Source: a virus. From it: DNA of 64,000 nt. The notes under the pieces were generated by a model, which searched no databases, was not told where the DNA came from, and worked only from the letters and a program-made list of their open reading frames with translations. The translations under genes were made by a program, and so were the position numbers. The DNA is taken from the UHGV virus genome UHGV-0218015. The stretch is one strand, 5' to 3'. Each line of letters starts with the position of its first letter. Position 1 is the first letter of the stretch. Shown piece by piece: positions 30,377 to 55,200 of this stretch.

Positions 30377-33300
30377 ATGGCTAAAGCGGTAAAGAAAATA
30401 CGTTTACACGACTTACATCCGTACACCGGGGATATCGGTGAAGGCGTTTTACTTTTTTCGAAAGACGAAAAAGATTATAAGTTACCAGTCCGCGAGATCG
30501 TTGCGGACATTGACACCGTCAGAAGTGCGGTTGCTGATGCACAAACGGCTGCGGCCAAATCACAACAGTCCGCAACAGAAGCTACGAAAGCTAAAGATTT
30601 AGCAGAAACAGCGAAGCAACAGACCACCACTTTAGCTTCCACAGTTAATGAGCAAGCGGGAACCGTCGCCACTAAAACTGCGGAGGTTAACAAAAAACAC
30701 GCTGAAGTTTTAGCAGCGAAAACTGCCGTAGATACTGTTTCACAATCAGTAAATGAGAAGGCTCAAGCTGTCGCCGCAAGCGAACAATCTGTGACAGCTG
30801 TAGCGGCTGATGTAACTAAGAAAGCAGAAACGGTTACGCAACGGGCCGGACAGGTTCAACAGACCGCTACCAGTATCGCAAATACTGCGGCTTCAATTGA
30901 GGCCAGTAAGGGCGCGGTGGAGAAGGTTGCTGCGCAGGTTACGAAAGATAAAGAAAGCTCAGAAGGCGCAGCTACACGCTCGGAGTCAGCCGCTCTGCGT
31001 GCGGAGAAAATCGCTGCACAGGGTTTAGTTGACGCTAGTACGACCGGTAAAGGTATCGTTAAACTTAACAATACCCTGACTAGCGAATCCGTGACGGAGG
31101 CTGCCACACCGTCCACGGTTAAACAGCTGAACGACGAATTACAGTTAAAAGCCGATAAACATTCGCCGAATTTTACGGGTAACCCGACATCACCAACGCC
31201 TCCAAAGGACTCGAATGACACGAGCATCTCCACAACGGCCTGGGTGCGTGCTGCTATCGCGGAATTGGTTGGTTCTTCACCTGAGACGTTAGATACCTTA
31301 GCGGAATTAGCTACGGCGTTAGGTAATGACCCTAACTTCGCAACAACGATTACTGAGAAACTTGCACAGAAGCAACCTATCAGTCCACTACTTACTGCTA
31401 TTGCCGCAGTCACAACCGCAGCAAACAAGCTCCCTTATTTCACTGGCACTAATAAAGTCGGGTTAACTGACTTTACAGAAACCGCCAGAACCTTGTTAGC
31501 AAAAGGGACAACTGCGGATATCATCAATTTCTTGGGATTAAAAGCCACTGTAGATAAAGCGAACTCTGCGTTACAGAAAAACTCTAACGGTGCTGATATC
31601 CCCAATAAAGAAACCTTTGCTCGCAATATTGGTCTATCTCCTGATACCTATCTGCGTTTCCGTGGTGAAATGCCCGCAGATGCTGATATTAACACATTTG
31701 CTCCAGATGCCAATTACACAGGAACATGGTCCAAGTCGACATCAACAAACGCATCGATAGCAAAACACTTCCCGGAAGACGGTGCGGTAGGTTATCTAGA
31801 AGTGTATAAAGCGGGCAACTACAGTGGAGCGCAACGTTTTACCTGCCGTAATGGTAACGTGTACAACCGCATGTTGTCAGCCGCGTGGAACGGAACTAAT
31901 GGCCCGTGGTCACCGTGGAGAATGGTAACTACAGGTGTACGCCCGTTATCTACATCGATCGATCTGAACTCCTTAGGCGGCGCTGAGCACATGGGTAACT
32001 GGCGTAACTCGTCCAGTTCGTTAGCGGTGTTCGACAGACATTATCCTGAAGAGGGCGGTAATGCGCAAGGCGTATTAGAAGTCATGGAAGGCGGTCTTTA
32101 TGGACGTTTACAACGTTACACCACTCGTCGTGGTACGATGTATGTCCGTGGTTTGACTGCGACTTGGGATTCGTCTAATCCGCAGTGGGAAGATTGGATT
32201 CAGGTTGGGTATCAGGTAGACGGTGCCTACTATAAGGGTAGCTTTAACGACTTAACTAAACCGGGTCGCTTTAGTGTTACCGGCGAGGCTACAGACGGTC
32301 CGTTAACAGACTCTGCTGGCGCAACCTTGCTAGGCGTTTGCGAAGTTACCTTACGCTTAGACGGTTCAGGTGTTGAACAAAATTATACCACATACGGTAC
32401 AGGCGCAACTTCGAAAGGTCGCAAGTTCCAACGAATTCGTACAGGAAATGCCTGGAGCGAATGGCGAGAGATTTTCACATCCTATTCACTCCCGTTGGCT
32501 TTAGGGATCGGTGGGGTTGCTGCTAAGGTAGATCCGTTAGACTGGCAAACCTTCGACTTCGTTCCTGGCCAGATGATAAGTACACCATTGAATACCATGA
32601 AAAACATTCCTGCGGGAATGGATTGGGGTGTTATCGACGGTAACTTGGTTACTATTCTTGTAGGGGCGTCGGAGGACACCGGTACTGGCCGGAGTATGTT
32701 GGTCTGGCGTGGTACAGTGTCTACTGCTAACTATCGCTTCTTTGCTGTTCGCGTCGCTGGTGAAAAGGGTAAACGTACTATTACTAGCCGCCAGATGCCC
32801 GTATTGAATGCAGCGCATACGTGGGCAGAAAAACAGACCTTTGCAAAAGGGTTATCAGGTGAGTTAACAGGCAATGCTGCTACGGCAACGAAACTGAAAA
32901 CAGCCCGTTTAATCGGCGGTGTAAGTTTCGACGGTAGCGGAGACATTAGCCTCCCTGGTGTAAACCAACAGGGTAATCAAAACACCTCTGGGAACGCGGG
33001 AACCGCAACCAAATTACAAACGGCTCGAAACATCAACGGTGTGAAATTTGATGGGTCTAGAGACATCAATATCAACACGTTGGTAGGACGTGGACGTGTT
33101 ACTGCACTGACTGGATCAAACAAAGGTACACCCGGTATTCAGATGTACGAAGTTTACAATAACGGTTATCCAACCGCTTATGGTAACTTACTGCATTTGG
33201 GCGGTTCTGCTGCGCTAGGCGAAGGGGAACTGTTAATCGGATGGTCGGGGACGAGCGGTGCGCACGCACCCGTTTATATTCGTAGTCGACGTGATACTGC

Positions 33301-34816
33301 TGATGCGCCGTGGTCAGATTGGGCACAAGTTTATACTGCCCGTGATAGCATTCCTGGTGTAAATGCCACAGGTAATCAGGATACTACCGGCAACGCCGCT
33401 ACCGCGACGAAACTGAAAACCGCTCGCAGGATCGGAGGCGTTAGCTTTGACGGTACAGGTGATATCAATTTACCGGGCGTTAACCAGCAAGGCAACCAGA
33501 ATACGACAGGTAATGCAGCGACCGCTACTAAGTTACAAACCGCACGTAAGATCGGCGGTGTGGTGTTCGATGGGACAAAAGACGTTAATCTTCCTGGTGT
33601 AAACCAAACCGGTAACCAATCGACTACGGGGAATGCGGCGACAGCGACTAAGCTACAGACTGCTCGAAATATAGGTGGCGTAGCTTTTGATGGTACTAAA
33701 GACATCAGTTTACCTGGAGTAAACCAAACAGGGAATCAGTCGACCACCGGAAACGCAGCCACGGCAACAAAGTTGCAAACCGCAAGAACCATCAATGGTA
33801 TTGCGTTTGATGGCACTAGAAATATATCGTTAGGGCCAGCCGAAATAGGTTGTCCGGCATCACCTAGTGGTTGGTTAGAAACTGGCGCTAATGGCGGTGC
33901 AATAACTACAGCACAGCTAGTGACGTTATTGAAAAATAACGGCGCATTTACCACAAGATCGTGGGTTGCTCGCTGTGCGTGGGCTTATGCCGCCAGTGCG
34001 TCCATACCTCACAGCGAGACGGGTTGTGGTGTCATTCCGTTAGCTGGGGCCGTTATAGAAGTCATTAGTAACGGCAACAGCACAAACAACTACACGATCC
34101 GTATAACGACCGCCACAACGACGAGCGTCGGCGGAGCACTCACTAATGCGGAGTTTATCTACGTATTTAACGGCGATGGATACTCACCAGGCTGGCGTCG
34201 TGCTTACAATACGAGAAACAAGCCAACTGCTGCGGAAGTGGGCGCGTTACCGTCAGGGGGCGGTACTGTAGGCGGTGATTTAACCGTTAATGGTAAATTG
34301 GCCACTAAATACCCTGATTTTCGAATCGCTTACGGTACCTACGGTTTTATTTTACGTAACGACGGTGCCAATACCTATTTCTTAGTAACCGACGCCGGAC
34401 AAGCCGCAGCGGGTTCCTGGAACGGATTACGCCCGTTGTCTTTTAATAATTCTAACGGCCAAGTAAACTTTGGACATAACGTTACTGGCAACGGTAACGG
34501 TTCGTTTAACGACGTACAGATTCGTTCTGACCGTCGTAACAAACGTAATCTGGTGAAGCTGGATAAAGCTTTGGATCGGTTAGAGTTACTAACCGGTTAT
34601 TTGTACGAAATTCAGCATCCTGATGACGGTTGGCAGACTTCTGTAGGTCTAATTGCTCAGGACGCATTAGAAGCGTTACCTGAACTTGTGTCAGAGGACG
34701 ACGATGCCATTTCAGGCGAAAAACGTTTACGTCTAAATTACAATGGCGTTATTGCGCTGTTAGTAGAGGGTATGAAGTCTCTTCGCCGAGAGCTTAAAGA
34801 ACTCAAGGGGAATTAA
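30377..34816 (+). CDS. tail fibre protein with C-terminal S74-type intramolecular chaperone
   Basis: 1479 aa; Ala-rich N-terminal region, TLDTLAELATALGNDPNF tail-fibre motif, six ~40-aa repeats (GNAATATKLQTAR..GGV.FDG), C-terminal SDRRNKRNLVKLDKALDRL...YNGVIALLVEGMKSL matching the autoproteolytic chaperone. Confidence 0.8.
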   Translation: MAKAVKKIRLHDLHPYTGDIGEGVLLFSKDEKDYKLPVREIVADIDTVRSAVADAQTAAAKSQQSATEATKAKDLAETAKQQTTTLASTVNEQAGTVATKTAEVNKKHAEVLAAKTAVDTVSQSVNEKAQAVAASEQSVTAVAADVTKKAETVTQRAGQVQQTATSIANTAASIEASKGAVEKVAAQVTKDKESSEGAATRSESAALRAEKIAAQGLVDASTTGKGIVKLNNTLTSESVTEAATPSTVKQLNDELQLKADKHSPNFTGNPTSPTPPKDSNDTSISTTAWVRAAIAELVGSSPETLDTLAELATALGNDPNFATTITEKLAQKQPISPLLTAIAAVTTAANKLPYFTGTNKVGLTDFTETARTLLAKGTTADIINFLGLKATVDKANSALQKNSNGADIPNKETFARNIGLSPDTYLRFRGEMPADADINTFAPDANYTGTWSKSTSTNASIAKHFPEDGAVGYLEVYKAGNYSGAQRFTCRNGNVYNRMLSAAWNGTNGPWSPWRMVTTGVRPLSTSIDLNSLGGAEHMGNWRNSSSSLAVFDRHYPEEGGNAQGVLEVMEGGLYGRLQRYTTRRGTMYVRGLTATWDSSNPQWEDWIQVGYQVDGAYYKGSFNDLTKPGRFSVTGEATDGPLTDSAGATLLGVCEVTLRLDGSGVEQNYTTYGTGATSKGRKFQRIRTGNAWSEWREIFTSYSLPLALGIGGVAAKVDPLDWQTFDFVPGQMISTPLNTMKNIPAGMDWGVIDGNLVTILVGASEDTGTGRSMLVWRGTVSTANYRFFAVRVAGEKGKRTITSRQMPVLNAAHTWAEKQTFAKGLSGELTGNAATATKLKTARLIGGVSFDGSGDISLPGVNQQGNQNTSGNAGTATKLQTARNINGVKFDGSRDININTLVGRGRVTALTGSNKGTPGIQMYEVYNNGYPTAYGNLLHLGGSAALGEGELLIGWSGTSGAHAPVYIRSRRDTADAPWSDWAQVYTARDSIPGVNATGNQDTTGNAATATKLKTARRIGGVSFDGTGDINLPGVNQQGNQNTTGNAATATKLQTARKIGGVVFDGTKDVNLPGVNQTGNQSTTGNAATATKLQTARNIGGVAFDGTKDISLPGVNQTGNQSTTGNAATATKLQTARTINGIAFDGTRNISLGPAEIGCPASPSGWLETGANGGAITTAQLVTLLKNNGAFTTRSWVARCAWAYAASASIPHSETGCGVIPLAGAVIEVISNGNSTNNYTIRITTATTTSVGGALTNAEFIYVFNGDGYSPGWRRAYNTRNKPTAAEVGALPSGGGTVGGDLTVNGKLATKYPDFRIAYGTYGFILRNDGANTYFLVTDAGQAAAGSWNGLRPLSFNNSNGQVNFGHNVTGNGNGSFNDVQIRSDRRNKRNLVKLDKALDRLELLTGYLYEIQHPDDGWQTSVGLIAQDALEALPELVSEDDDAISGEKRLRLNYNGVIALLVEGMKSLRRELKELKGN
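32833..33072 (+). repeat. in-frame 120-bp coding repeats, copies 1-2 (tail fibre)
   Basis: Units begin cctggtgtaaacc; encode GNAATATKL.TAR..GGV.FDG. Confidence 0.6.
33353..33832 (+). repeat. four tandem 120-bp coding repeats (tail fibre)
   Basis: Unit starts at 33353, 33473, 33593, 33713; protein-level conservation with synonymous divergence. Confidence 0.7.
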
Positions 34817-34857: not shown

Positions 34858-35403
34858 ATGGGGGTAGCATCCGGCTGGGTTGGAAGCTCAGCAAAGGCAG
34901 TAACCGGTCAGGAGTGGATGAGTGTGGCAGGTAATAAGCTTAAACTGAGCACGCCATTTAACATGTCGCAGATGGTCGGGCGTAGCGTAGAGGATCTTAA
35001 ACTCGTTGTAGGCCGATCAACCTATGTTGTTTTGGTGCAGGCTACGAACACGCAGTGGGTTCCTATTACAAATACGTATGGGGGGTATTCGAACAACTCT
35101 ACAACAACGGGTGCTGGTTCTACAGTATCGAATCGTGTGCAAACACAAAATGCGGCCGGTTCGGTGTCAGGTTCGATCTTGGGTTGTAGCGTCACACATC
35201 TTAGCCAAGTACAAAATACTGGTATTATCTACATGGCCCTAACCAATGGACCAAATCAGAATATTACGCTTTCGTTTAACGGAACGAAGATTACTTTTCT
35301 ACCGTACTCCTACAGTAACGGCGTCCGGCGCTATGAGGCTAAGACGGCAACCAACTGGTTATTTAATCAGAACGGTGCAACAATTTCAATAAGTGTAGTC
35401 TAA
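34858..35403 (+). CDS. tail-fibre-associated protein (paralog of 35657..36163)
   Basis: N-terminus MGVASGWVGSSAKAVTGQEWMS matches the paralog; sits immediately after the fibre gene. Confidence 0.45.
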   Translation: MGVASGWVGSSAKAVTGQEWMSVAGNKLKLSTPFNMSQMVGRSVEDLKLVVGRSTYVVLVQATNTQWVPITNTYGGYSNNSTTTGAGSTVSNRVQTQNAAGSVSGSILGCSVTHLSQVQNTGIIYMALTNGPNQNITLSFNGTKITFLPYSYSNGVRRYEAKTATNWLFNQNGATISISVV

Positions 35404-35413
35404 GGACAGAAAG

Positions 35414-35644
35414 ATGTTAAGAAAAGTTTTACTGGGTTTCGCATTGCTTACAGTAAGTGGATGTCAACAACTACCCGAACCTGTATGTTACGGCACAGCT
35501 AAGCTGGGTAATGAAGAGACTACGATCAATATTTTCGACGTAAAAAAGCAGGGCAGATACACACTTTATAAAGCTGATCATCATTATAATTGGCGTTGGG
35601 TTGGGCGTGGTGCTTTCGATTCAATAACATGTAGAAAATCTTAA
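35414..35644 (+). CDS. small lipoprotein
   Basis: Signal peptide with lipobox LTVSGC; 76 aa. Confidence 0.5.
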   Translation: MLRKVLLGFALLTVSGCQQLPEPVCYGTAKLGNEETTINIFDVKKQGRYTLYKADHHYNWRWVGRGAFDSITCRKS

Positions 35645-35656
35645 CAGGAGATCGCG

Positions 35657-36163
35657 ATGGGGGGGGTAACCGGTTCGTGGGTCGGTTCTTCGGCCAAGAA
35701 CGAAACGGGCGAACAATGGATGAGCGCTGCTGGTAGTAAATTAGGATTGGGTAGACCTTTTATGATGAGTCAAATGGTGGGACGATCTATGGGCTGTAAA
35801 ATTGCAACCGCTGCATATAGCGATTCTTTAGGTAAGAAATGGGGCGCAGTAGGACCAAGCTGGCCGTTAAACCAGAAAAATCAGGGAACCATTCAAAACG
35901 CGGGTAACTGCGGGGTGGGAACTTTAGTAGGTATTGAGTTACAGTTAACGACGATAGTTGCCAACGCAAAGCCTACTTTAGCGGTTTACTTACAAGGAGG
36001 CAGAGCCTCTAACATTACCGTAAATTTAGGTGGTAACACCTGCGCGCTGGCCTATCAGCAGGTTATTAACGGACAGCATTATTACTGGACTAATAACATC
36101 AGCGCTGCGTTCCAAAACGTGATGAAATCGACAGGCGCACTGCGTGATTTGAGAATTAGCTAA
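35657..36163 (+). CDS. tail-fibre-associated protein (paralog), G8 tract at codons 1-4
   Basis: ATG GGG GGG GTA start; N-terminus matches 34858 gene. Confidence 0.45.
   Translation: MGGVTGSWVGSSAKNETGEQWMSAAGSKLGLGRPFMMSQMVGRSMGCKIATAAYSDSLGKKWGAVGPSWPLNQKNQGTIQNAGNCGVGTLVGIELQLTTIVANAKPTLAVYLQGGRASNITVNLGGNTCALAYQQVINGQHYYWTNNISAAFQNVMKSTGALRDLRIS
35659..35666 (+). repeat. G8 homopolymer at codons 1-4 of the 35657 gene
   Basis: atgggggggggta; the paralog at 34858 has only G5 here. Confidence 0.7.
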
Positions 36164-47967: not shown

Positions 47968-48558
47968 ATGGCCGAACGTTGGACTAAAGAAGGTATTATT
48001 GAATCAAAAACAGATTTAGAGGGTGGGTACGTCAATGACCCTGACGATAAAGGTGGGGAAACCTGTCACGGGGTAACACTGACAACTGCACGCGAATACG
48101 GGTACAAAGGAAGAATGAAAGATCTGACCCGTGCGCAAGCGTTTGATATTTACGATCGTGGTTGGTGGAAGAAACTTAAACTCGATGAGATTTTCGCTAT
48201 CTCGCCGATACTCGCCGACAGGATGTTTGATTTTGGTATTAACTCTGGTCGTGTTAACTGTGTGAAATCGTTACAACGTATTCTCAACGTTTTAAATAAC
48301 GAAGGGAAACTTTACGCAGATATTGACACCGATGGTGGTATGGGACCTAAAACACTAGGTGCTCTGAATGCTTATCTGAATTACCGTAAAGGCGAGGGAT
48401 TAGGCATCTTAATCTTTGCGTTAATCTCACATCAGGTAACCTACTACACGGAAATCTCCGAAAAGCGTAAGAAGAATGAAAAATTCGCTTACGGCTGGTA
48501 CGGACGCGTGTACAGGGAAATGCCGGATTATGTAGTGAAGGCGGGGTTAGTAAAATGA
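47968..48558 (+). CDS. GH108-family muramidase (endolysin candidate)
   Basis: N-terminal EGGYVNDPDDKGGETCHGVT matches the GH108 EGGY..D..D.GG.T..G signature. Confidence 0.6.
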   Translation: MAERWTKEGIIESKTDLEGGYVNDPDDKGGETCHGVTLTTAREYGYKGRMKDLTRAQAFDIYDRGWWKKLKLDEIFAISPILADRMFDFGINSGRVNCVKSLQRILNVLNNEGKLYADIDTDGGMGPKTLGALNAYLNYRKGEGLGILIFALISHQVTYYTEISEKRKKNEKFAYGWYGRVYREMPDYVVKAGLVK

Positions 48559-48659
48559 ATTGGTTTGCTAAACTCTTAGCACTATTGTGGAAAGCGTTAA
48601 CGTCTGGACGGAAACGTAAAGACGAAAAGCGTGGGTACGAATTTTTCTGGTTTCTATAA
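48555..48659 (+). CDS. small amphipathic peptide (34 aa), lysis-associated?
   Basis: ATG overlaps the endolysin stop; encodes MNWFAKLLALLWKALTSGRKRKDEKRGYEFFWFL. Not in ORF track; speculative. Confidence 0.2.
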   Translation: MNWFAKLLALLWKALTSGRKRKDEKRGYEFFWFL

Positions 48660-48674: not shown

Positions 48675-49340
48675 ATGGAGAAGCTTCAATATAAACGTTT
48701 AGACAATAAGTGGTTTGTATTAACGGAGGATTACCATTATCCGTTTACGTTACGCGAGATTTATCACGACCACGTACACTTAGACCGTGCGGTTTATTTA
48801 ACGGGTGTATTGCCTGACACGCAACTGTGGTTAACAGCACCGAAAGGGTTCGTTACCGATTTAGCGTCAATTCCTGATCACCTCCAGGGAATTTTCCATC
48901 CTGACGGACCGTGGGCACCTGCGGCCTGTATTCACGACTTACTCTATCAAAAATGCAACACGGAGCGTAGCTATCCCATGACACCGGGTGGTAACGTTTC
49001 GCGTTTCATCGATAAAGAGTTCTCTGACTTAACTTTCCTGCGTATTATGCAGTCGTTGGAAATCTCGCCTTATATCTGCCAAACATTTTATAAGGCCGTT
49101 GTTGAATTCGGCTGGGATGCCTACGTAGATCCTAATGCAAAGCCATCCTACAGCACTAACGCGTTTCGTACGTTAGATTACAATCGAAACTATTTATTCG
49201 TTCGCGAGTTTAAGGAACCTGCAATCCCTGACCACGAACGTATTGATATCACCACAGATTGTCCCGTTAATGTCAAATACCTGAACATCAAACGGGCTTT
49301 TCTGTCTGGGAGGGAAGATGTTTCATCCAAATCCGAGTAA
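48675..49340 (+). CDS. DUF1353-like protein (tentative)
   Basis: ATG at 48675 after GGAAGGTG; GFVTDLASIP resembles a phage-associated domain signature; weak. Confidence 0.35.
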   Translation: MEKLQYKRLDNKWFVLTEDYHYPFTLREIYHDHVHLDRAVYLTGVLPDTQLWLTAPKGFVTDLASIPDHLQGIFHPDGPWAPAACIHDLLYQKCNTERSYPMTPGGNVSRFIDKEFSDLTFLRIMQSLEISPYICQTFYKAVVEFGWDAYVDPNAKPSYSTNAFRTLDYNRNYLFVREFKEPAIPDHERIDITTDCPVNVKYLNIKRAFLSGREDVSSKSE

Positions 49341-49833
49341 CTTTAAACTCAGAGAGTTAGTACCACAGTCCTATATTGCCAAATACGGCGATTCCGCAAT
49401 TCGGTTTATGAATCCGTTGTTAATGATCTCCCTACAACAGATTCGTAATCGTTTCGGCAGAATGGTGATTAACTCAACTGCCGCACAACAGCGCGGACTA
49501 AGAACCTTAGATTTCTTTATTAATCAAGAAAAGCCTAAGGGTGGTAGTTATAAACAACGTGCGTTGCAGCTTTACGCCGATTCAGGAAGTCAACACAAAT
49601 TCGGTAACGCCATTGATGCAACGTTGTTGGATAGCACCGTAAAACAGGTTCACGACTATATCGCTGCTAACCCTGACGAGTTTCCGTTCATTCACTTTAT
49701 TGAATGTGACATCAGTTGGTTGCACATTGACGTTCGTAACCAGCCTAACATTACTTTCTGGTCACCAAATCGTGGTACTGTGAAAGTTGTTAAGCAAAAA
49801 CCAATCGATTGGAGCGCCTTAGTCGAGATTTAA
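49318..49833 (+). CDS. peptidase M15-like peptidoglycan peptidase
   Basis: SQHKFGNAIDAT fits the S-x-H-x-x-G-x-A-x-D zinc-site block of M15/VanY-type peptidases (as in L-alanyl-D-glutamate endolysins). Confidence 0.5.
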   Translation: MFHPNPSNFKLRELVPQSYIAKYGDSAIRFMNPLLMISLQQIRNRFGRMVINSTAAQQRGLRTLDFFINQEKPKGGSYKQRALQLYADSGSQHKFGNAIDATLLDSTVKQVHDYIAANPDEFPFIHFIECDISWLHIDVRNQPNITFWSPNRGTVKVVKQKPIDWSALVEI

Positions 49834-49918
49834 CTATTTCTAAGGTGTTTATACCTTATTTTGTATAAAGACGCTCAGAATGCGTTTTACGCACGATTTG
49901 GCGGTTAAAATGAATATA

Positions 49919-49950
49919 CCCTACTCCCGATAAGGAGTAGGGTAGTTTTT
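49919..49950. terminator. bidirectional terminator (+ block end / minus lipoprotein gene end)
   Basis: ccctactcc-cgataa-ggagtaggg with T-run downstream. Confidence 0.6.
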
Positions 49951-50431
49951 ATTGTTCCGCAGGATGGAGCATTGTTCCAGTGTCAGACGCTACACCTTCT
50001 TTACAGTGGAAGAAAGTAATGCCTTTACCATCACCCGTTTTATATTCTAAAGTAGAATACGCAAACGTTGGCGTTTTTGAAAGTAAGCCATTTACACGAT
50101 AGTAACGTTGTCCTGTGATAGGATCAATATTCCCATTAACTTTACCTAATAAATCTTTATAAAGTTGCGGCGACTCAATCTTGCCGTTTGGCCAAGTGGC
50201 TACCCAGTTAGCACCAGTATCGAGTACAGTTACTGACCCTAGCATTATATTAGTCGAGCTGACGACAGGTTTGTAATTTGCAAAATCTTGCTCTGCACCC
50301 ATACAGGTGTAAATAACCATATCATGTGGCTCCACCGGCACAGTCGAGAATTGGCCGTTACCATTCGGTTGTAAGGCACATCCTGCCAATGAAAAAACAC
50401 CAACCATAACGATAAGAAAACGTTTTATCAT
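49949..50431 (-). CDS. lipoprotein
   Basis: Isolated minus-strand gene; ATG at 50431 after AAGGTG; signal peptide with lipobox LAGC; flanked by terminators. Confidence 0.55.
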   Translation of the reverse strand: MIKRFLIVMVGVFSLAGCALQPNGNGQFSTVPVEPHDMVIYTCMGAEQDFANYKPVVSSTNIMLGSVTVLDTGANWVATWPNGKIESPQLYKDLLGKVNGNIDPITGQRYYRVNGLLSKTPTFAYSTLEYKTGDGKGITFFHCKEGVASDTGTMLHPAEQ

Positions 50432-50572
50432 ACTCTTCACCTTTTATAAAAAAGTTAAAGTTAATTAATTTTACAAGCAACCCTTCTGCCGCCTGTCATA
50501 ACTATTAACACCGCTTCTATAATCCGAACAATACTATGCAAACCACCCATACTACTTACGAGGTAAAAAACA

Positions 50573-51103
50573 ATGGCTAAAACTTTTCAACAGCAGCTTA
50601 TCGAACTTATTAACACTAAAAACAGCTCTCTGAGCTCCGCTCTCACCGTAGCTGATGTTGACTTTAGTGCTGTCGCTGACTTCACCGGAGAAGCTGGCCG
50701 CAACACTAAAATTACTCTGACCGCCAAGGCAGAAAGCCAGAACTTCAAAGGCGAGAAAGAATTCCACTATACTCGTCTTTCCTGCGACATCGTTGGTGAA
50801 GTTGAAGTAACTGCACCTACTACCGATTTCGATTCACCAACGAAAATCCTGGCAAAAGTTAACGCAGCCATGGCTGAGAAAGGGTACACCGATGACGAGT
50901 TCGGTGAAAACGACCTGCAAACTATTTCCCGTGAAGAAGAAGGCAAAACCATTTACGTAGTAACTGTTGTGGCTGGACACCTGAAGTTCCTGCCAGGTAC
51001 TGTTGCAACGTATAAAGTTACTCCTCCGGCTATTGAGAAAGTAGTATTGAACGGTTTGGAAGGTGAACTGGATGGCTTCACCGCACCAGCGCCTAAAGAG
51101 TAA
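50573..51103 (+). CDS. hypothetical protein, four-gene family member
   Basis: AGGTAAAAAACA-ATG; QQQLIELINTKN...; C-terminal GELDGFTA shared with next gene. Confidence 0.5.
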   Translation: MAKTFQQQLIELINTKNSSLSSALTVADVDFSAVADFTGEAGRNTKITLTAKAESQNFKGEKEFHYTRLSCDIVGEVEVTAPTTDFDSPTKILAKVNAAMAEKGYTDDEFGENDLQTISREEEGKTIYVVTVVAGHLKFLPGTVATYKVTPPAIEKVVLNGLEGELDGFTAPAPKE

Positions 51104-51110
51104 TTGATTC

Positions 51111-51119
51111 GGGGGGGGG
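51111..51119 (+). repeat. G9 homopolymer in intergenic hairpin
   Basis: Between the two four-gene-family members. Confidence 0.7.
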
Positions 51120-51150
51120 TGGTAACCTCCCCCGATATTTCTTTAACTTT
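51111..51150 (+). terminator. G-tract hairpin terminator candidate
   Basis: G9 followed by tggtaacctccccc and a T-rich tail; imperfect stem. Confidence 0.4.
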
Positions 51151-51170
51151 CATTTTAAGGATTTAAGATA

Positions 51171-51701
51171 ATGGCAGCTACTAACCAGATGATGTTAGTT
51201 GCGCTTTATAATGCTGCTAACACAGAGCTACCGCATCAGGTCACTGATAAAGAGGTAACTTTTGGTCAACCTGTCGCTCTTGAAAAGGGCGATAAAAATA
51301 CCAAAGTTACCATGACCGCACGTACAGAGTCTGAAAATTTTAAAGGCGCAATCGAACTGCATTACGATCGTCTGGAACCTGGCGTTATCGGACGCATTGA
51401 GGTAACGGACGATTTGGCTCTCTGGACTGGAGAAAACGAACTACGCGACCGATTACAGTTCTACATCAATAAAGTAAAACCTGACGACTCTATCGCGCCT
51501 GGTGACGTTGAGTACACCACCGAAGACCAGAAAGACGAACACGATAGCGTCACTCTGCGTACGGTAACTTGTACCGTTACTGAAAAGAACCTCCGTTATA
51601 AACCGGGTGTAATGGCAACTTTCGTAATTACGCCGAAAGTTGTTGATAATCGTATTGACCTGGCCACCACCGACGGTGAACTTGACGGCTTTACTGCTTA
51701 A
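51171..51701 (+). CDS. hypothetical protein, four-gene family member
   Basis: Paralog of 50573 (ENFKGA.ELHYDRL, GELDGFTA); bidirectional terminator follows. Confidence 0.5.
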   Translation: MAATNQMMLVALYNAANTELPHQVTDKEVTFGQPVALEKGDKNTKVTMTARTESENFKGAIELHYDRLEPGVIGRIEVTDDLALWTGENELRDRLQFYINKVKPDDSIAPGDVEYTTEDQKDEHDSVTLRTVTCTVTEKNLRYKPGVMATFVITPKVVDNRIDLATTDGELDGFTA

Positions 51702-51739: not shown

Positions 51740-51780
51740 ACCTACCTCCTTTACGGAGGTAGGTACTTTTTTATTTTATC
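51740..51780. terminator. bidirectional terminator between convergent blocks
   Basis: 11-bp stem tacctacctcc / ggaggtaggta, A-run upstream, T-run downstream. Confidence 0.75.
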
Positions 51781-52445
51781 CCCATTTCCAAAGCGTACGC
51801 TCGGATGGTATCATAATCACGCCGCTCGGCTAAAAGCCGAAGCTCTTTTTTCTGCTCGGTTTTCTGCCCATGCAATTTCTGATCACGTTTCACAATCGCT
51901 GCCATCAGTTCTTTGCATTGTTCCAACGTGAACGGTTCTATTCGTGCATTCGACGTATCCAACCAATATTCCGGGGCGGTTTCAGACTGAATATACTGAC
52001 TTAACATCTGTCGCGATGCGTCGTCTGTTTGGAAATAACACCCATTTAACTTAATGGGTGCATAACGCTGTTCCTCATAAAGACGTTCCATCTCTATCAT
52101 GATTTTCTGAACATCTTGATAGATATAACGTGCAGTTGATCGAACGTTGTTTCGTATTTCTTCTAAATCAATCTCAAGAACATCAGCGATAAATTCTTTC
52201 GCTTTCTGTAGAGTGAAATTAGCCTCAATCTCCGACATATCGTAACTACGCATCTGTTCGATTGCGGCCTTATCTTCCAACCCATCGATTAATTTGTAGT
52301 GTAGAAGCGCACAAAAACCCGCACGACCACGATCCTCGTTGCCAATTCGTTCCATGTAATTACCGTGGCGATCGATTGGAAGCCCTCGTGAGAAATAACG
52401 TTGACGTATTTCCTCTTTCGTTAAGCCTTCGTCAATAACAGACAT
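51771..52445 (-). CDS. hypothetical protein
   Basis: Last gene of the minus-strand block. Confidence 0.45.
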   Translation of the reverse strand: MSVIDEGLTKEEIRQRYFSRGLPIDRHGNYMERIGNEDRGRAGFCALLHYKLIDGLEDKAAIEQMRSYDMSEIEANFTLQKAKEFIADVLEIDLEEIRNNVRSTARYIYQDVQKIMIEMERLYEEQRYAPIKLNGCYFQTDDASRQMLSQYIQSETAPEYWLDTSNARIEPFTLEQCKELMAAIVKRDQKLHGQKTEQKKELRLLAERRDYDTIRAYALEMGIK

Positions 52446-52993
52446 TCATCTTCTCCTTTAACTAAACCTAGCTCAATTAACAATTCAAAATCGATTTGGC
52501 GAAATTTGTTATCAAAACCAGAATCCCAATCGATGTGTAATCCTTGTCGTTCTTCATCGGTAAGTTCAGGATAAATTAAATCATGGAACGCTTCACGTTC
52601 CTCGTAAAATCCATCGATAGTAGAATCTGGATTCCGCATTGCGTAAATCGTGATGCCCGGAAAGGATAATCCTAATGCTGTTATAGATTCGACGCTTGGT
52701 TCTTGCAAGGCCCTGCGTAATAGCACGATTTTATGTCGTGGAAAATCTAGTACACGTTGTTCAAACCCAGGATTCCGTTTCTCAATTTCTGTAACTGAAA
52801 GATCGGTGAGTTCTGTGCAATACATTGGGATAACTACAGTTACTCCGTGGCGAATTAATAATCGTTTAACATCGTCAGTGAAGTCTTCACCATTAATTTG
52901 CACATAACAACCAAACAATTTTGTAGTTTCTAAAAATTTTTCCAGAAAACGGAATTTACGCTTCGTAATATTGTGGATCAGAATTGGCTTCAT
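52421..52993 (-). CDS. hypothetical protein
   Basis: ORF overlapping both neighbours. Confidence 0.45.
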   Translation of the reverse strand: MKPILIHNITKRKFRFLEKFLETTKLFGCYVQINGEDFTDDVKRLLIRHGVTVVIPMYCTELTDLSVTEIEKRNPGFEQRVLDFPRHKIVLLRRALQEPSVESITALGLSFPGITIYAMRNPDSTIDGFYEEREAFHDLIYPELTDEERQGLHIDWDSGFDNKFRQIDFELLIELGLVKGEDECLLLTKA

Positions 52994-54278
52994 CTTTGGT
53001 TTCTCTCAATTGTTTTTCTTTCTGGGTACGTTCACGTACGCAACGAGGGCAATAACACATGCTATTGTCATGAAAATCTTTCACTGACGTCGTGCCCATT
53101 TTCTGTTTCCAATATTCCGCAACCATCAACTTTGCAGTTGTCCAGCCGCATTGACGGCGTTCAGCGTGATAAGCTTTGCGATCTTCTAGCGTCCCTTCTC
53201 CATTCTCGTAAGATGCAGCCGCACAACTACCACAAGCGTGCTTCATTGGACAACCTAAACAGGTTTCAGGATAGTTGGTGTATTGCGTCTGAATCTCTTC
53301 CAGCAATTTCCCGTCATCTAAGCTAACGAATTCCCGGCCAACTAATTCAAATACGGCAGAACGTGATGTTACGGTTGACATGAAACGGTTACAACCGAAG
53401 ATCTTACGATCAAATCCTAAGCAGGTCATGTGTGTTAACGTACCGCAGAACGGGCGTAAACGTTCTGGATTCAAACGTACAGTATCGTTATACAATAACT
53501 GATCACGCCAGTTTGGTTCCCAGATAGTATCAAAATCTAACCCGTCTGGAATGATGTGCGACAAAGTGTTACGTGGGTTGGTGTGTAAGCCCTTCTCAAC
53601 CCAATAATCAACCACGTCCATCATCTGCAATGCGATTGAAGTAGCCATGCTCCGTGGCATAATGTCTTCGAAGGTTACGTTGCCAGAAATAGTTCCGCCG
53701 CCAGTAATATCAATTAATGATTTCATTCCAGCAGCATAGAACGGTAACGTTTCCAACGTAAAGGTCGCTTTTACACCAAGTTCTGCAATACCGACTTCTT
53801 TTAAGTAGTTATAGCCCCGCACAGCGGCCTCGTAAGATCCTTCACGAGTTGTTGTAAAAATCCGGTACTTATCGTGCGATTCGGGCAATCCATCAATAGA
53901 CACGCCGATAGAAAGCCTGTCTTTCCAACGTTCAATAATTTCTCTATTCAAAGGTCTATCTAACAACGTTCCGTTAGTAGAGATGCTAAACATAAACGGC
54001 CGATTATGTTTTTCGCATAACTCTTCTGCGGTTTCAAATGCCGCCTTTAATAGTTTAGGCTGCATAAACGGCTCACCACCGATGATATCGATAACGACCT
54101 CGATGTTTGTCAGATCTTTATCTCGTTCAAAACAAGCGTGTAGAAAATCAACAATATCCGCCGCTTTGTTATTACGGGGATACTTACGTTCGTAACAATA
54201 CTCACAGTCCAAGTTACACGATAAATTTGTAACAATTTGATAAGTCAGTTGTTTTGGATAACTATTTTCTTGACTCAT
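52956..54278 (-). CDS. radical SAM enzyme with SPASM-type C-terminal domain (anSME-like peptide maturase candidate)
   Basis: N-terminal CNLDCEYCYE (CxxxCxxC), GGEP; C-terminal Cys clusters CLGCPMKHACGSC and CYCPRC typical of SPASM/twitch domains. Confidence 0.75.
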   Translation of the reverse strand: MSQENSYPKQLTYQIVTNLSCNLDCEYCYERKYPRNNKAADIVDFLHACFERDKDLTNIEVVIDIIGGEPFMQPKLLKAAFETAEELCEKHNRPFMFSISTNGTLLDRPLNREIIERWKDRLSIGVSIDGLPESHDKYRIFTTTREGSYEAAVRGYNYLKEVGIAELGVKATFTLETLPFYAAGMKSLIDITGGGTISGNVTFEDIMPRSMATSIALQMMDVVDYWVEKGLHTNPRNTLSHIIPDGLDFDTIWEPNWRDQLLYNDTVRLNPERLRPFCGTLTHMTCLGFDRKIFGCNRFMSTVTSRSAVFELVGREFVSLDDGKLLEEIQTQYTNYPETCLGCPMKHACGSCAAASYENGEGTLEDRKAYHAERRQCGWTTAKLMVAEYWKQKMGTTSVKDFHDNSMCYCPRCVRERTQKEKQLRETKDEANSDPQYYEA

Positions 54279-55200
54279 TTTCCGCCCCTCTATTACGCTC
54301 TGCCATCACTACACGACGAATGTACTCGTAAGCTTCTACACCTATTGAGGAGGCTAGTTGGTTACACCCTGCTTTTGTAGTTATTGGTACATTTTTAAGT
54401 TGGTTTTCTTCCCCGTCCGCGTCTATCCTGAGACTTTCGCTACAGACATTACAAGCATGATCGAAGAATCTGTTTACAATAAAACCGCAGTCTCTAGAAT
54501 TTAGAACGTTTAATCTTTCTATATTCTCCTGAATTCTAAAATACCCGTAAATAAAGTTCATAACGTGATCGGGAGATAACGGTTTTGGCATGTTTTTATC
54601 TAGTAATAAGGACATGGAACGAAAACCGTAATGATAGATAGCAGTATGTAATTGAATGATATCTTCATGCCATCTTTTGTTGGATAAATTCTCCCTCGTA
54701 ACAACAGCCCAAGTGTTAACATTATTCAAGCTGTAAATTACTTCTAACGCTTCATGACAATTATCATCAATAAAGCGCTTAAAAGGCCGTTCGGAAAGAT
54801 TAAACCCATCGATGCTAACATATATAGCATCGAATTGTTTTAACAACGGTAGATGCGATTTACGCATTTTTAAACCGTTCGTGAACATCTGGTGTTTGAG
54901 TTCAGGACGGATCGTTTTTAATTCGTCGACAAACGCCTCAATCTTTCGAGTTGCCAGTAGCGGTTCACCGCCAGTCCACTGAATTTCAGTAATGGTTGGG
55001 TTAGACGCCAACGCTTTCAAAATTCGTTCACGTTGAAACTCTCGCGGAGAATCTTCACGATGCATGTAATAGGCTCCGCCGCAGAAGCTACAGTCCAGAT
55101 TACATTTGGATGTAGCAACTACGGACAATACGGTGGGTTTATTGTATAAACGATTCGATAACCTTGGCTCTACGTCGGTTGTCATTGCAGGTGAGTCCAT
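54262..55200 (-). CDS. radical SAM enzyme (paralog B)
   Basis: TSKCNLDCSFCGG and GGEPLL; paralog of 57235..58149 with identical DNA blocks. Confidence 0.7.
   Translation of the reverse strand: MDSPAMTTDVEPRLSNRLYNKPTVLSVVATSKCNLDCSFCGGAYYMHREDSPREFQRERILKALASNPTITEIQWTGGEPLLATRKIEAFVDELKTIRPELKHQMFTNGLKMRKSHLPLLKQFDAIYVSIDGFNLSERPFKRFIDDNCHEALEVIYSLNNVNTWAVVTRENLSNKRWHEDIIQLHTAIYHYGFRSMSLLLDKNMPKPLSPDHVMNFIYGYFRIQENIERLNVLNSRDCGFIVNRFFDHACNVCSESLRIDADGEENQLKNVPITTKAGCNQLASSIGVEAYEYIRRVVMAERNRGAENESRK
54514..54597. repeat. 84-bp block identical to 57478..57561
   Basis: Identical string inside radical SAM paralogs B and A; two more shared blocks of ~38 and ~54 bp near 54838/57813 and 55081/58025. 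Confidence 0.7.

What the first reader, a model, noticed from the sequence alone, without database searches (positions are those of the whole stretch)
49949..50431. Isolated opposite-strand lipoprotein gene
This is a single minus-strand gene with its own flanking terminators inside an otherwise + strand region, encoding a lipobox protein (LAGC). The layout is typical of an independently expressed accessory gene, for example superinfection exclusion or an outer-membrane spanin.
Basis: partly seen in the sequence, partly recalled or inferred. Interest (0 to 1): 0.35.

Follow-up and report, generated by a model that had tools for sequence, protein, structure and literature searches.

The report
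Conserved jumbo-phage outer-membrane lipoprotein gene
This is a real, separately transcribed gene for an outer-membrane lipoprotein found in SPN3US-like and Goslar-like jumbo phages; it always sits beside the host-recognition fibre genes, its role is untested, and it most likely alters the infected cell's envelope rather than building the virus particle.

Summary
Window 49949..50431 (-) encodes a 160-aa precursor with a textbook lipoprotein signal (MIKRFLIVMVGVFSLAG|C, Ala at +2). It is the only minus-strand gene in a ~44-kb plus-strand run. A conserved bidirectional hairpin (49917-49944) follows it, but there is no second, upstream terminator.

The window is an SPN3US-like chimallivirus. The gene is the ortholog of SPN3US gp159 and a distant homolog of Goslar gp88 (PHROG 9559; no Pfam, NCBIfam or PADLOC family). 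The lipobox Cys and two further Cys are present in all 27 homologs, down to 29% identity. AlphaFold gives a confident small all-beta barrel on a flexible tether, with no significant structural match.

The gene is syntenic and antiparallel to its neighbours across Seoulvirus, Erskinevirus and Wellingtonvirus. It is absent from Derbicusvirus. In Goslar-like phages it lies on the same strand, directly after the tail fibre and its assembly protein. It always adjoins DUF7941 fibre genes.

SPN3US proteomics classes gp159 as non-virion. A 2026 preprint finds about 740 copies of Goslar gp88 per virion, in a sample also rich in host porins.

An o-spanin is unlikely. Receptor masking or exclusion is the best guess (about 0.4) and is unproven.

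The parts
49949..50431 (-). CDS, 160-aa lipoprotein precursor (ortholog of SPN3US gp159; PHROG 9559)
50381..50431 (-). Type II signal peptide, residues 1-17 (MIKRFLIVMVGVFSLAG). The lipobox is L15-A16-G17-C18.
   Evidence: read directly from the sequence
50378..50380 (-). Codon of Cys18, the predicted lipidated N-terminus of the mature protein. The next residue is Ala, so there is no Asp inner-membrane retention signal.
   Evidence: Invariant in alignments A1-A3; 27/27 homologs
49997..50350 (-). All-beta barrel domain (precursor residues about 28-145), with invariant Cys43 and Cys143 (probable disulfide) and the conserved ESPQLYKDLLGK motif
   Evidence: AF2 model m0641ea2d03a0, pLDDT 85, pTM 0.78; alignments
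50437..50443 (-). Shine-Dalgarno-like AAGGTGA, 5 nt before the ATG
50493..50500 (-). TATGACAG. The TATGAC core is invariant 55-69 nt upstream of the start in 7 phages. Candidate promoter core; this is an inference.
   Evidence: compare the phiKZ late TATG motif in PMC7598289
50535..50540 (+). TATGCA, conserved on the opposite strand 38 nt before the divergent DUF7941 gene. Candidate promoter core of that gene.
49917..49944 (.). Bidirectional hairpin terminator shared with the convergent M15-like gene
   Evidence: conserved in SPN3US and Asesino
49318..49833 (+). Convergent neighbour: M15-type zinc peptidase-like protein (SPN3US gp158 homolog; PHROG 894 'endolysin')
50573..51103 (+). Divergent neighbour: small DUF7941 fibre-family protein (homolog of SPN3US gp160, an abundant virion protein)
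51171..51701 (+). Second small DUF7941 paralog. Copy number of these paralogs varies from 1 to 4 among relatives.

Best explanation
SHOWN OR STRONGLY INFERRED
- The gene encodes a Sec/LspA-type lipoprotein.
- With Ala at +2 it would be sorted by Lol to the outer membrane of an enterobacterial host.
- It would hang there by a roughly 10-residue flexible tether, carrying a disulfide-stapled all-beta barrel of about 115 aa.
- It has its own start signals in a divergent intergenic region and its own hairpin terminator.
- It belongs to a family restricted to enterobacterial chimalliviruses (SPN3US gp159, Goslar gp88).
- The family is under purifying selection and is made as protein during infection.

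INFERRED MECHANISM
- It is a non-structural accessory protein that conditions the envelope of the infected cell with respect to the phage's own host-recognition machinery.
- By binding an outer-membrane or periplasmic target, it would stop superinfecting virions from productively engaging the infected cell.
- It would likewise stop newly released virions, which carry tail fibres and a sticky DUF7941 'fibre cloud', from engaging the cell's debris.
- This is the logic of T5 Llp and phi80 Cor, carried out by an unrelated, larger protein.
For: Lipoprotein identity:
- The signal and lipobox are present in 27/27 homologs, Asp at +2 is never seen, and each homolog has the same two further conserved mature-domain Cys (invariant alignment columns C43, C143).
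- AF2 gives a compact beta barrel with a disordered N-terminal tether (pLDDT 85).
- No catalytic family matches: Pfam, NCBIfam and PADLOC give nothing. This fits a binding protein.

Link to host-recognition genes:
- In the window and all SPN3US-like relatives the gene is divergent from small DUF7941 genes.
- In Goslar-like phages it directly follows the tail fibre and its Caudo_TAP assembly protein, and precedes DUF7941-tailspike or LRR proteins.
- DUF7941 proteins are proposed baseplate-anchored host-recognition filaments (bioRxiv 10.64898/2026.04.21.720040).

Non-virion status in SPN3US:
- gp159 is absent from the virion table.
- It gives 0-3 spectra and is labelled 'Non-virion', against about 580 spectra for gp160.
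- It is seen (8 and 13 spectra) in only two of nine preparations.

Other points:
- Expressed abundantly in Goslar: 209 spectra.
- Present or absent between genera, consistent with an accessory role.
- Purifying selection, dN/dS 0.065.
Against: - No exclusion or adsorption phenotype exists for any family member.
- There is no sequence or fold relation to Cor or Llp.
- The window already carries a bona fide Cor homolog at 35414..35644, so a second exclusion lipoprotein is not obviously needed.
- The protein is well conserved across phages of Salmonella, Erwinia, E. coli and Proteus. Receptor-masking proteins usually co-vary with the receptor-binding protein.
- A periplasm-facing lipoprotein cannot mask surface glycans, which is what DUF7941-associated domains are predicted to bind.
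- SPN3US is, from my own recollection of the literature (not checked here), flagellum-dependent.
- Goslar gp88 is about 4-6 times more abundant in purified virions than the known contaminants PhuZ and chimallin. This could mean true virion association.
- Expression timing is unknown.
Confidence: 0.4

Rival explanations
1. Virion- or fibre-associated protein. The protein is a genuine high-copy component of chimallivirus particles. For example, after lysis it might bind the DUF7941 fibre cloud or the peripheral baseplate, or reach the virion by a non-canonical route.
For: - Goslar gp88 is estimated at about 740 copies per virion (range 491-1158), with 20 peptides and 209 spectra, in PEG/CsCl-purified virions.
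- It ranks above the DUF7941 protein gp22.
- The gene is embedded in fibre gene clusters.
Against: - It was not modelled in any cryoEM map.
- The same sample contains many host OmpA, OmpC and OmpF peptides with areas of 1e5-2e5, against 5e5 for the best gp88 peptide. It also holds non-virion PhuZ and chimallin at 126-170 'copies'.
- The reported coverage of 77.84% equals exactly residues 32-167 minus FYR/MNK. Nothing comes from the signal peptide or the Cys20 peptide, as expected for an exported, lipidated protein.
- The closer ortholog SPN3US gp159 is scored non-virion.
- A Sec-exported, disulfide-bonded lipoprotein cannot join particles that assemble in the cytoplasm.
Confidence: 0.18
2. Lysis-cassette accessory. 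The protein would be an outer-membrane lysis factor (o-spanin-like or another OM-destabilising lipoprotein) or a regulator of lysis, acting with the neighbouring GH108 endolysin, the 34-aa peptide, DUF1353 and the M15 peptidase.
For: - In SPN3US-like phages the gene is convergent with the operon endolysin / 34-aa peptide / DUF1353 / (M15).
- It moves with that operon as one inverted block in Wellington.
- It is an OM lipoprotein, abundant by the end of infection.
Against: - There is no i-spanin gene next to it, and the flanking genes are on the other strand.
- The mature protein is 142 aa and confidently folded, not short and proline-rich.
- It gives no spanin PHROG hit.
- SPN3US has a separate adjacent pair with spanin-like architecture: an N-terminal TMD protein at 180017..180487 and an LLTGC lipoprotein at 180497..180976.
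- In Goslar-like phages the gene is not near an endolysin.
- Asesino keeps the lipoprotein but lacks the M15 gene.
Confidence: 0.12
3. Periplasmic inhibitor of a peptidoglycan hydrolase. It would work like MliC/PliC or T4 Spackle, protecting the infected cell from lysis-from-without or from premature action of the phage's own GH108 or M15 enzymes.
For: - The architecture matches MliC: lipobox, short linker, small beta barrel, and one Cys near the first strand and one near the last.
- A Foldseek viral hit (E 5e-4, TM 0.50) is to an RB49 protein annotated with a LprI-like lysozyme-inhibitor N-domain.
- The gene lies next to two PG hydrolase genes.
Against: - hhalign of the family profile against E. 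coli MliC aligns only the signal peptide and first Cys (probability 38%).
- MliC and PliC structures are not among the top 50 PDB Foldseek hits, where the best TM is about 0.4 with E > 0.01.
- The Goslar-like context has no hydrolase neighbour.
Confidence: 0.1

Closest known systems
SPN3US gp159 (SPN3US_0159) / Goslar gp88 / PHROG 9559: uncharacterised chimallivirus protein family
   Same: - Direct homology: PHROG E 1.5e-65; 48% identity to SPN3US gp159; 33.5% identity (E 1e-15) to Goslar gp88.
- Same lipobox and the same three Cys.
- Same neighbourhood of DUF7941 and fibre genes.
   Different: No difference of kind; the window gene is an ortholog. No one has assigned the family a function. 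The Goslar preprint lists gp88 as an unknown high-copy virion protein and does not mention its lipoprotein signal.
Cor (phi80/N15/T1; PHROG 1119) and T5 Llp: receptor-blocking superinfection-exclusion lipoproteins
   Same: - Phage-encoded outer-membrane lipoprotein.
- The gene lies beside receptor-binding or fibre genes; in Goslar it sits directly after the tail fibre and Tfa, the position Cor occupies in siphophages (my knowledge).
- Transcribed independently of its neighbours, as T5 llp is (my knowledge).
   Different: - No sequence similarity. Only PHROG 9559 is hit, whereas the window's other lipoprotein at 35414..35644 hits Cor at E 1.3e-25.
- More than twice the size (142 aa mature, against about 60).
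- Different predicted fold.
- No phenotype known.
Rz1-type o-spanins
   Same: A phage-encoded OM lipoprotein with Cys residues in the mature part.
   Different: - No partner i-spanin gene.
- Large folded beta barrel.
- Not embedded in or adjacent to a TMD-protein gene.
- A better spanin-like pair exists elsewhere in SPN3US.
MliC/PliC lysozyme-inhibitor lipoproteins and small lipoprotein beta barrels (NHBA C-domain, lipocalins)
   Same: Lipid-anchored small up-and-down beta barrel with a terminal disulfide. These give weak Foldseek resemblance (TM 0.37-0.43).
   Different: - E-values are above 0.01.
- No MliC motifs.
- hhalign is not significant.

Membership tests
Bacterial-type (SPase II) lipoprotein | Positively charged n-region, hydrophobic h-region, and a lipobox [LVI][ASTVI][GAS]C within the first ~35 residues | tested here: met
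   M-I-K-R, then FLIVMVGVFSL, then L-A-G-C18. It is one of only two real genes in the window passing a PROSITE-like rule.
Bacterial-type (SPase II) lipoprotein | The lipobox Cys is conserved in homologs | tested here: met
   27/27 homologs, down to 29% identity
Bacterial-type (SPase II) lipoprotein | Outer-membrane sorting: no Asp at +2 (enterobacterial Lol rule) | tested here: met
   The +2 residue is Ala in the window gene; among the 27 homologs +2 is A 19, S 2, V 2, T/Q/K/M 1 each, never D
Bacterial-type (SPase II) lipoprotein | Actual lipidation and LspA cleavage | not testable with these tools
   Only indirect evidence: Goslar MS coverage equals residues 32-167 minus two tripeptides, and no peptide starting at Cys20 or Ala21 appears in the stored part of the table.
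o-spanin (Rz1-like) | An i-spanin gene (N-terminal TMD, periplasmic coiled coil) adjacent, overlapping or embedding it on the same strand | tested here: not met
   Both flanking genes are on the opposite strand. They are an M15-like and a DUF7941 protein.
o-spanin (Rz1-like) | Short, proline-rich, largely unstructured mature peptide | tested here: not met
   142 aa mature; a confident beta barrel (pLDDT 85)
Cor / Llp superinfection-exclusion lipoproteins | Sequence membership (PHROG 1119 or equivalent) | tested here: not met
   Only phrog_9559 is hit at E <= 0.01. Cor is hit by a different window gene.
Cor / Llp superinfection-exclusion lipoproteins | Gene adjacent to receptor-binding or tail-fibre genes | tested here: met
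   Adjacent to DUF7941 fibre genes in all loci, and directly after the tail fibre and Caudo_TAP in Goslar-like loci
Cor / Llp superinfection-exclusion lipoproteins | Blocks adsorption or DNA entry of the cognate phage when expressed | not testable with these tools
   No experimental data found
MliC/PliC lysozyme inhibitors | Profile or sequence similarity to the MliC domain | tested here: not met
   hhalign probability 38%, covering only the signal peptide region. No Pfam hit in 28 members.
MliC/PliC lysozyme inhibitors | Eight-stranded beta-barrel fold match | tested here: inconclusive
   Generic small-barrel hits only (TM about 0.4, E > 0.01). MliC is not in the top 50.
Virion structural protein | Reproducibly present in purified virions and located in the particle | tested here: inconclusive
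   SPN3US gp159: 0-3 spectra, 'Non-virion'. Goslar gp88: about 740 copies by MS, but unmodelled and accompanied by host porins.
PHROG 9559 (SPN3US gp159 / Goslar gp88 family) | Full-length profile match | tested here: met
   E 1.5e-65, residues 2-152 against profile positions 2-154 of 166

The most novel reading that the evidence does not exclude
The family is a phage-made, lipid-anchored partner of the chimallivirus DUF7941 'fibre cloud'. It would be exported to the outer membrane, then bind the fibres or baseplate of released virions. Particles would then leave the cell carrying hundreds of copies of a lipoprotein, or patches of outer membrane. Alternatively the protein would act as a decoy that keeps the micron-long fibres inert until release. 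This would explain why Goslar gp88 is one of the most abundant 'virion' proteins although it carries a lipoprotein export signal.
Probability: 0.12. Interest if true: 0.7.

Novelty: new variant of a known kind. Interest (0 to 1): 0.42.

Why it matters
Phage-encoded outer-membrane lipoproteins such as Llp, Cor and Rz1 are classic tools of exclusion and lysis. None has been described for nucleus-forming jumbo phages.

This family is conserved in the two best-studied enterobacterial chimallivirus models, SPN3US and Goslar. It sits in their host-recognition gene clusters. In Goslar it was recently listed, unrecognised as a lipoprotein, among the most abundant unexplained 'virion' proteins.

Knowing that it carries an export and lipidation signal changes how that proteomic result should be read: either envelope carry-over or post-lysis binding. 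It also gives a short list of cheap experiments.

If it is an exclusion or receptor-masking factor, it is relevant to phage-cocktail design with these broad-host-range therapeutic candidates.

Tried and rejected
- Pfam, NCBIfam and PADLOC scans of the protein and of 28 family members gave no family. The 'DUF2846' label on one GenBank ortholog was not reproduced.
- A profile search of PDB sequences returned only chance hits such as P5C reductase.
- The first AF2 model, from 9 sequences, was poor (pLDDT 66) and its Foldseek hits were meaningless. I replaced it with a 28-sequence model.
- A 5404-aa hit (P0017) in the representative search is a eukaryote-like FN3 repeat protein that accumulated 17 weak repeat matches. 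It is not a homolog.
- P0014 and P0021 are scrambled translations, and several SPFM records give fragmented matches. These are probably assembly errors.
- The idea that the gene evolves unusually fast (70% identity against 91-96% for its left neighbours) was rejected. Synonymous divergence jumps at the same point (pS 0.81 against 0.19-0.55), so this is a recombination boundary. dN/dS of the mature part is 0.065.
- The TATG 'late promoter' idea was tested for enrichment. TATG, TATGAC and TATGCA are not enriched in intergenic DNA of the window. Only the cross-phage conservation of TATGAC upstream of this gene remains.
- The candidate early-type motif AGATATATATTAC is absent upstream of the gene.
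- No sigma-70-like promoter was found on the gene's strand. Such a promoter would not be expected to matter if, as reported for phiKZ (PMC7598289), transcription in this phage group relies on the phage's own RNA polymerases.
- The Weintraub 2019 infection proteome of SPN3US could not be read.

Full report
**1. What is at the coordinates**

- A minus-strand ORF ends at 49949 and can start at GTG 50440 or ATG 50431.
- The ATG is preceded by AAGGTGA with a 5-nt spacing. It is the position where all homologs start, and it is invariant in a six-phage DNA alignment in which the GTG is not conserved. The finding's coordinates are therefore right.
- The product begins MIKRFLIVMVGVFSLAG-C-ALQ. This has two basic residues, an 11-residue hydrophobic core and the lipobox LAGC.
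- A PROSITE-like lipobox rule run over all six frames of the window picks only two genes that are real. One is this gene. The other is a 76-aa ORF at 35414..35644.
- A hairpin with 12 pairs (6 of them G-C) followed by a T-run lies at 49917-49944 and is called on both strands. It serves this gene and the convergent gene 49318..49833.
- No terminator lies in the 141-bp upstream gap, so 'flanking terminators' is only half right.
- The gene is the only minus-strand gene between 7671 and 51701, but a long minus-strand block begins at 51771.
- GC content is 0.40 against 0.42-0.45 nearby, which gives no compositional sign of recent import.

**2. What phage this is and how the gene is distributed**

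- The DNA has no close match among deposited phages.
- tblastn with the protein at E<=10 matches 65 phage records; about 50 near-full-length matches are in SPN3US-like jumbo phages of Salmonella, Erwinia, E. coli and Proteus, two are the more distant E. coli phage Goslar (33.5% identity, E 1e-15), and the rest are fragmentary SPFM matches or chance hits (E 0.2-8).
- In GenBank numbering the SPN3US ortholog is SPN3US_0159, that is gp159.
- The only family hit is PHROG 9559, 'unknown function', at E 1.5e-65. Pfam, NCBIfam and PADLOC give nothing for this protein or for 28 relatives.
- An exhaustive HMMER search of 1.84 billion representatives found 14 proteins. A word-indexed profile search found 28. 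All come from phage-like contigs.
- Every homolog has a lipobox Cys, none has Asp at +2, and each has the same two further conserved mature-domain Cys (the invariant alignment columns C43 and C143).

**3. Gene neighbourhood**

- In SPN3US, SPAsTU, Asesino and six metagenomic or assembly contigs, the plus-strand order is GH108 endolysin, a 34-aa peptide, DUF1353 and (usually) an M15-like peptidase.
- The lipoprotein gene follows, convergent on the other strand.
- Then come one to four small DUF7941 genes, divergent from it. After these lies the minus-strand block of DUF4376, a 190-aa protein and two radical-SAM enzymes.
- In Wellington the unit from endolysin to the DUF7941 gene is inverted as a block. 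The gene stays convergent with DUF1353 and divergent from DUF7941.
- Derbicusvirus phages (CR5, Phobos, Derbicus) have the same radical-SAM marker. Their DUF1353, M15 and small DUF7941 genes are contiguous on one strand, and there is no lipoprotein and no GH108 at the locus.
- The gene is therefore an old, clade-level insertion with its own signals. It is not a sporadic moron.
- In Goslar and three Goslar-like contigs the homolog lies on the same strand as its neighbours. It comes directly after a P1 S-like tail fibre and its Caudo_TAP assembly protein. It is followed by DUF7941 proteins fused to tailspike, LRR or DUF285 domains.
- The one constant across about 30% sequence identity is adjacency to DUF7941 or fibre genes.
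- A 2026 preprint proposes that DUF7941 proteins form long filaments anchored at the peripheral baseplate and mediate host recognition (bioRxiv 10.64898/2026.04.21.720040).
- The window has five DUF7941 paralogs, a 1479-aa T4-like tail fibre, two Gp38-type adhesins and an esterase-type spike.

**4. Structure**

- With a 28-sequence alignment, AlphaFold2 gives pLDDT 85 and pTM 0.78.
- The first 8 and last 12 mature residues are disordered. Between them are eleven strands with no helices.
- Foldseek against the PDB finds nothing at E < 0.01. The best hits are small lipoprotein or ligand-binding barrels (NHBA C-domain, lipocalins) at TM about 0.4.
- Against viral models, only orthologs are strong. 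The next hits are uncharacterised phage proteins and an RB49 protein annotated with a LprI-like domain (E 5e-4, TM 0.5).
- The architecture of lipobox, linker, barrel and terminal Cys pair recalls MliC. However, hhalign against E. coli MliC aligns only the signal region (probability 38%).

**5. Is it structural?**

SPN3US:
- gp159 is missing from the 2017 virion table.
- A 2023 high-sensitivity data set gives 0, 0 and 3 spectra in one set of triplicates and 0, 0 and 0 in the other, and labels it 'Non-virion'. The neighbouring gp160 has about 580 spectra.
- In a 2020 data set it appears (8 and 13 spectra) in only two of nine preparations. From the order of the sample key these are probably the debris-rich protease-mutant samples, but I did not verify the columns.
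- The protein is therefore made during infection but is not part of the SPN3US particle.

Goslar:
- Table S4 of the preprint lists YP_009820773.1 (HOV27_gp088, the same protein as).
- It has 20 peptides, 209 spectra and 77.84% coverage, with an estimated 491-1158 copies per virion. It does not appear in any cryoEM model.
- 130 of 167 residues is exactly residues 32-167 minus the tripeptides FYR and MNK.
- No peptide containing ATLEGLPNLDK was recorded in the stored part of the table, which is cut and holds roughly the peptides beginning A to E; the next tryptic peptide is present.
- This is what an exported, N-terminally lipidated protein would give. An undetectable uncleaved peptide cannot be excluded.
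- The same sample contains many host peptides, including OmpA, OmpC and OmpF with areas of 1e5-2e5 against 5e5 for the best gp88 peptide. It also holds PhuZ and chimallin at 126-170 'copies'.
- Outer-membrane carry-over is therefore a sufficient explanation. True binding to virions is not excluded.
- The preprint's main text contains no occurrence of 'lipoprotein' or 'signal peptide'.

**6. Expression signals**

- The upstream region has three conserved islands on the gene's strand: TGCATA, ATAG...TATGAC, and CTGT(A/T)AA.
- TGCATA reads TATGCA on the other strand, 38 nt before the DUF7941 start.
- TATGAC recurs 55 nt upstream of the gene in Wellington.
- phiKZ late promoters are defined by TATG at the start site (PMC7598289), so a late, non-virion-RNAP promoter is a reasonable inference.
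- However, TATG-type words are not enriched in the window's intergenic DNA, so this rests on conservation alone.
- A different repeated motif, AGATATATATTAC, occurs exactly three times in the window and several times in SPN3US. It is a candidate early-type promoter. It is not upstream of this gene.
- Timing remains open.

**7. Evolution**

- Against the closest relative, the mature part has dN/dS 0.065, like its neighbours.
- Against the next relative, the gene and everything to its right are synonymously saturated (pS about 0.8), while the left neighbours are not (0.19-0.55). A mosaic boundary therefore falls at the convergent terminator.
- There is no sign of diversifying selection.

**8. 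Function**

- An o-spanin is unlikely for four reasons. There is no i-spanin partner. The protein is a large folded domain. There is no spanin family hit. SPN3US also has a separate adjacent pair with spanin architecture, a TMD protein at 180017..180487 and an LLTGC lipoprotein at 180497..180976.
- A peptidoglycan-hydrolase inhibitor is possible, but only weak architectural resemblance supports it.
- The reading I prefer is an abundant, non-structural outer-membrane lipoprotein that binds an envelope target and neutralises the phage's own adsorption or entry machinery on infected cells and debris. This uses Llp/Cor logic. It rests on localisation signals, the binding-type fold, the constant linkage to fibre genes, the Cor-like position in Goslar, and the non-virion status in SPN3US.
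- Four points weigh against it. There is no phenotype. The target is not obvious, because glycan-binding fibres cannot be blocked from the periplasm. A true Cor homolog is already present in the window. The abundance in Goslar is unexplained.
- I put the preferred reading at about 0.4.

**9. Novelty**

- The gene is an ortholog of annotated hypothetical proteins, so its existence is not new.
- What is new is the recognition that this chimallivirus family, including one of Goslar's most abundant unexplained 'virion' proteins, consists of conserved lipoproteins that are linked to the fibre genes and unrelated to Cor, Llp and Rz1.
- I class it as a new variant of a known kind, of moderate interest.

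Noticed in passing
window 35414..35644 (+): A second lipoprotein gene (76 aa, MLRKVLLGFALLTVSGC...). It matches PHROG 1119 'Cor superinfection exclusion protein' at E 1.3e-25. It lies between two Gp38_N-type tail-fibre adhesin genes (34858..35403, 35657..36163), downstream of a 1479-aa T4 gp34/37-like fibre with an S74 chaperone domain (30377..34816). A Cor-type exclusion gene in a jumbo phage fibre module looks worth its own study.
   Followed up: partly
window 48555..48659 (+): A 34-aa ORF (MNWFAKLLALLWKALTSGRKRKDEKRGYEFFWFL) overlaps the endolysin stop by 4 nt. Genes of the same length are called at this position in six related contigs, and there are short ORFs there in Asesino and Wellington. 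It is amphipathic and cationic, so it could be a membrane-active lysis peptide.
   Followed up: partly
SPN3US NC_027402.1 180017..180487 and 180497..180976 (L011:30017-30976): Two adjacent same-strand genes: one for a protein with an N-terminal TMD and a proline-rich C-terminus, one for a lipoprotein (LLTGC). This has the architecture of a separated i-/o-spanin pair. Both are annotated as hypothetical (PHROGs 8719 and 8165, unknown function).
   Followed up: partly
window 19878, 38951, 43324 (+): Three exact copies of AGATATATATTAC; two lie about 70 nt upstream of the next ORF start and one 17 nt upstream. The same word and a variant (AGATAGATATTATC) recur 6-7 times in SPN3US. This is a candidate vRNAP early-promoter motif for this phage group.
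   Followed up: partly
window 30377..34816 vs L007:4025-7543: The tail fibre shares 72% amino-acid identity over 285 residues with the fibre of a Goslar-like contig that is otherwise unrelated to the window. This suggests horizontal exchange of a fibre module between chimallivirus lineages.
   Followed up: no
window 49833/49949 boundary and 51701/51771 boundary: Synonymous divergence from close relatives jumps sharply at these intergenic points (for example pS 0.19-0.55 to the left and about 0.8 to the right). Recombination breakpoints coincide with the convergent terminator and with the strand switch.
   Followed up: yes
window 50573..51701 and equivalent loci L001-L003, L013-L018: The number of small (~176-aa) DUF7941 paralogs next to the lipoprotein gene varies from 1 (SPN3US) to 4 (SPAsTU). 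This is a tandem array that expands and contracts.
   Followed up: partly
L018 (GCA_008917135.1, Salmonella Agona assembly, 224,834-bp contig); L014, L015: Near-complete jumbo-phage genomes of about 220 kb, related to the window, occur as single contigs in assemblies deposited as bacterial genomes. This suggests a carrier state or contamination of the sequenced cultures.
   Followed up: no
window 51771..55200 (-): A conserved minus-strand block of a DUF4376 protein, a 190-aa protein and two radical-SAM enzymes (one 440 aa with a Cys-rich C-terminus). It is present in all 62 SPN3US-like records, sits next to the fibre genes, and has unknown function.
   Followed up: no
phage records LR535905-LR535917 (SPFM6, 8, 9, 20 and others); proteins P0014, P0021: The ortholog appears fragmented or with its segments in scrambled order in several SPFM genomes and in two database proteins. 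These are most likely assembly or consensus errors in those records.
   Followed up: no
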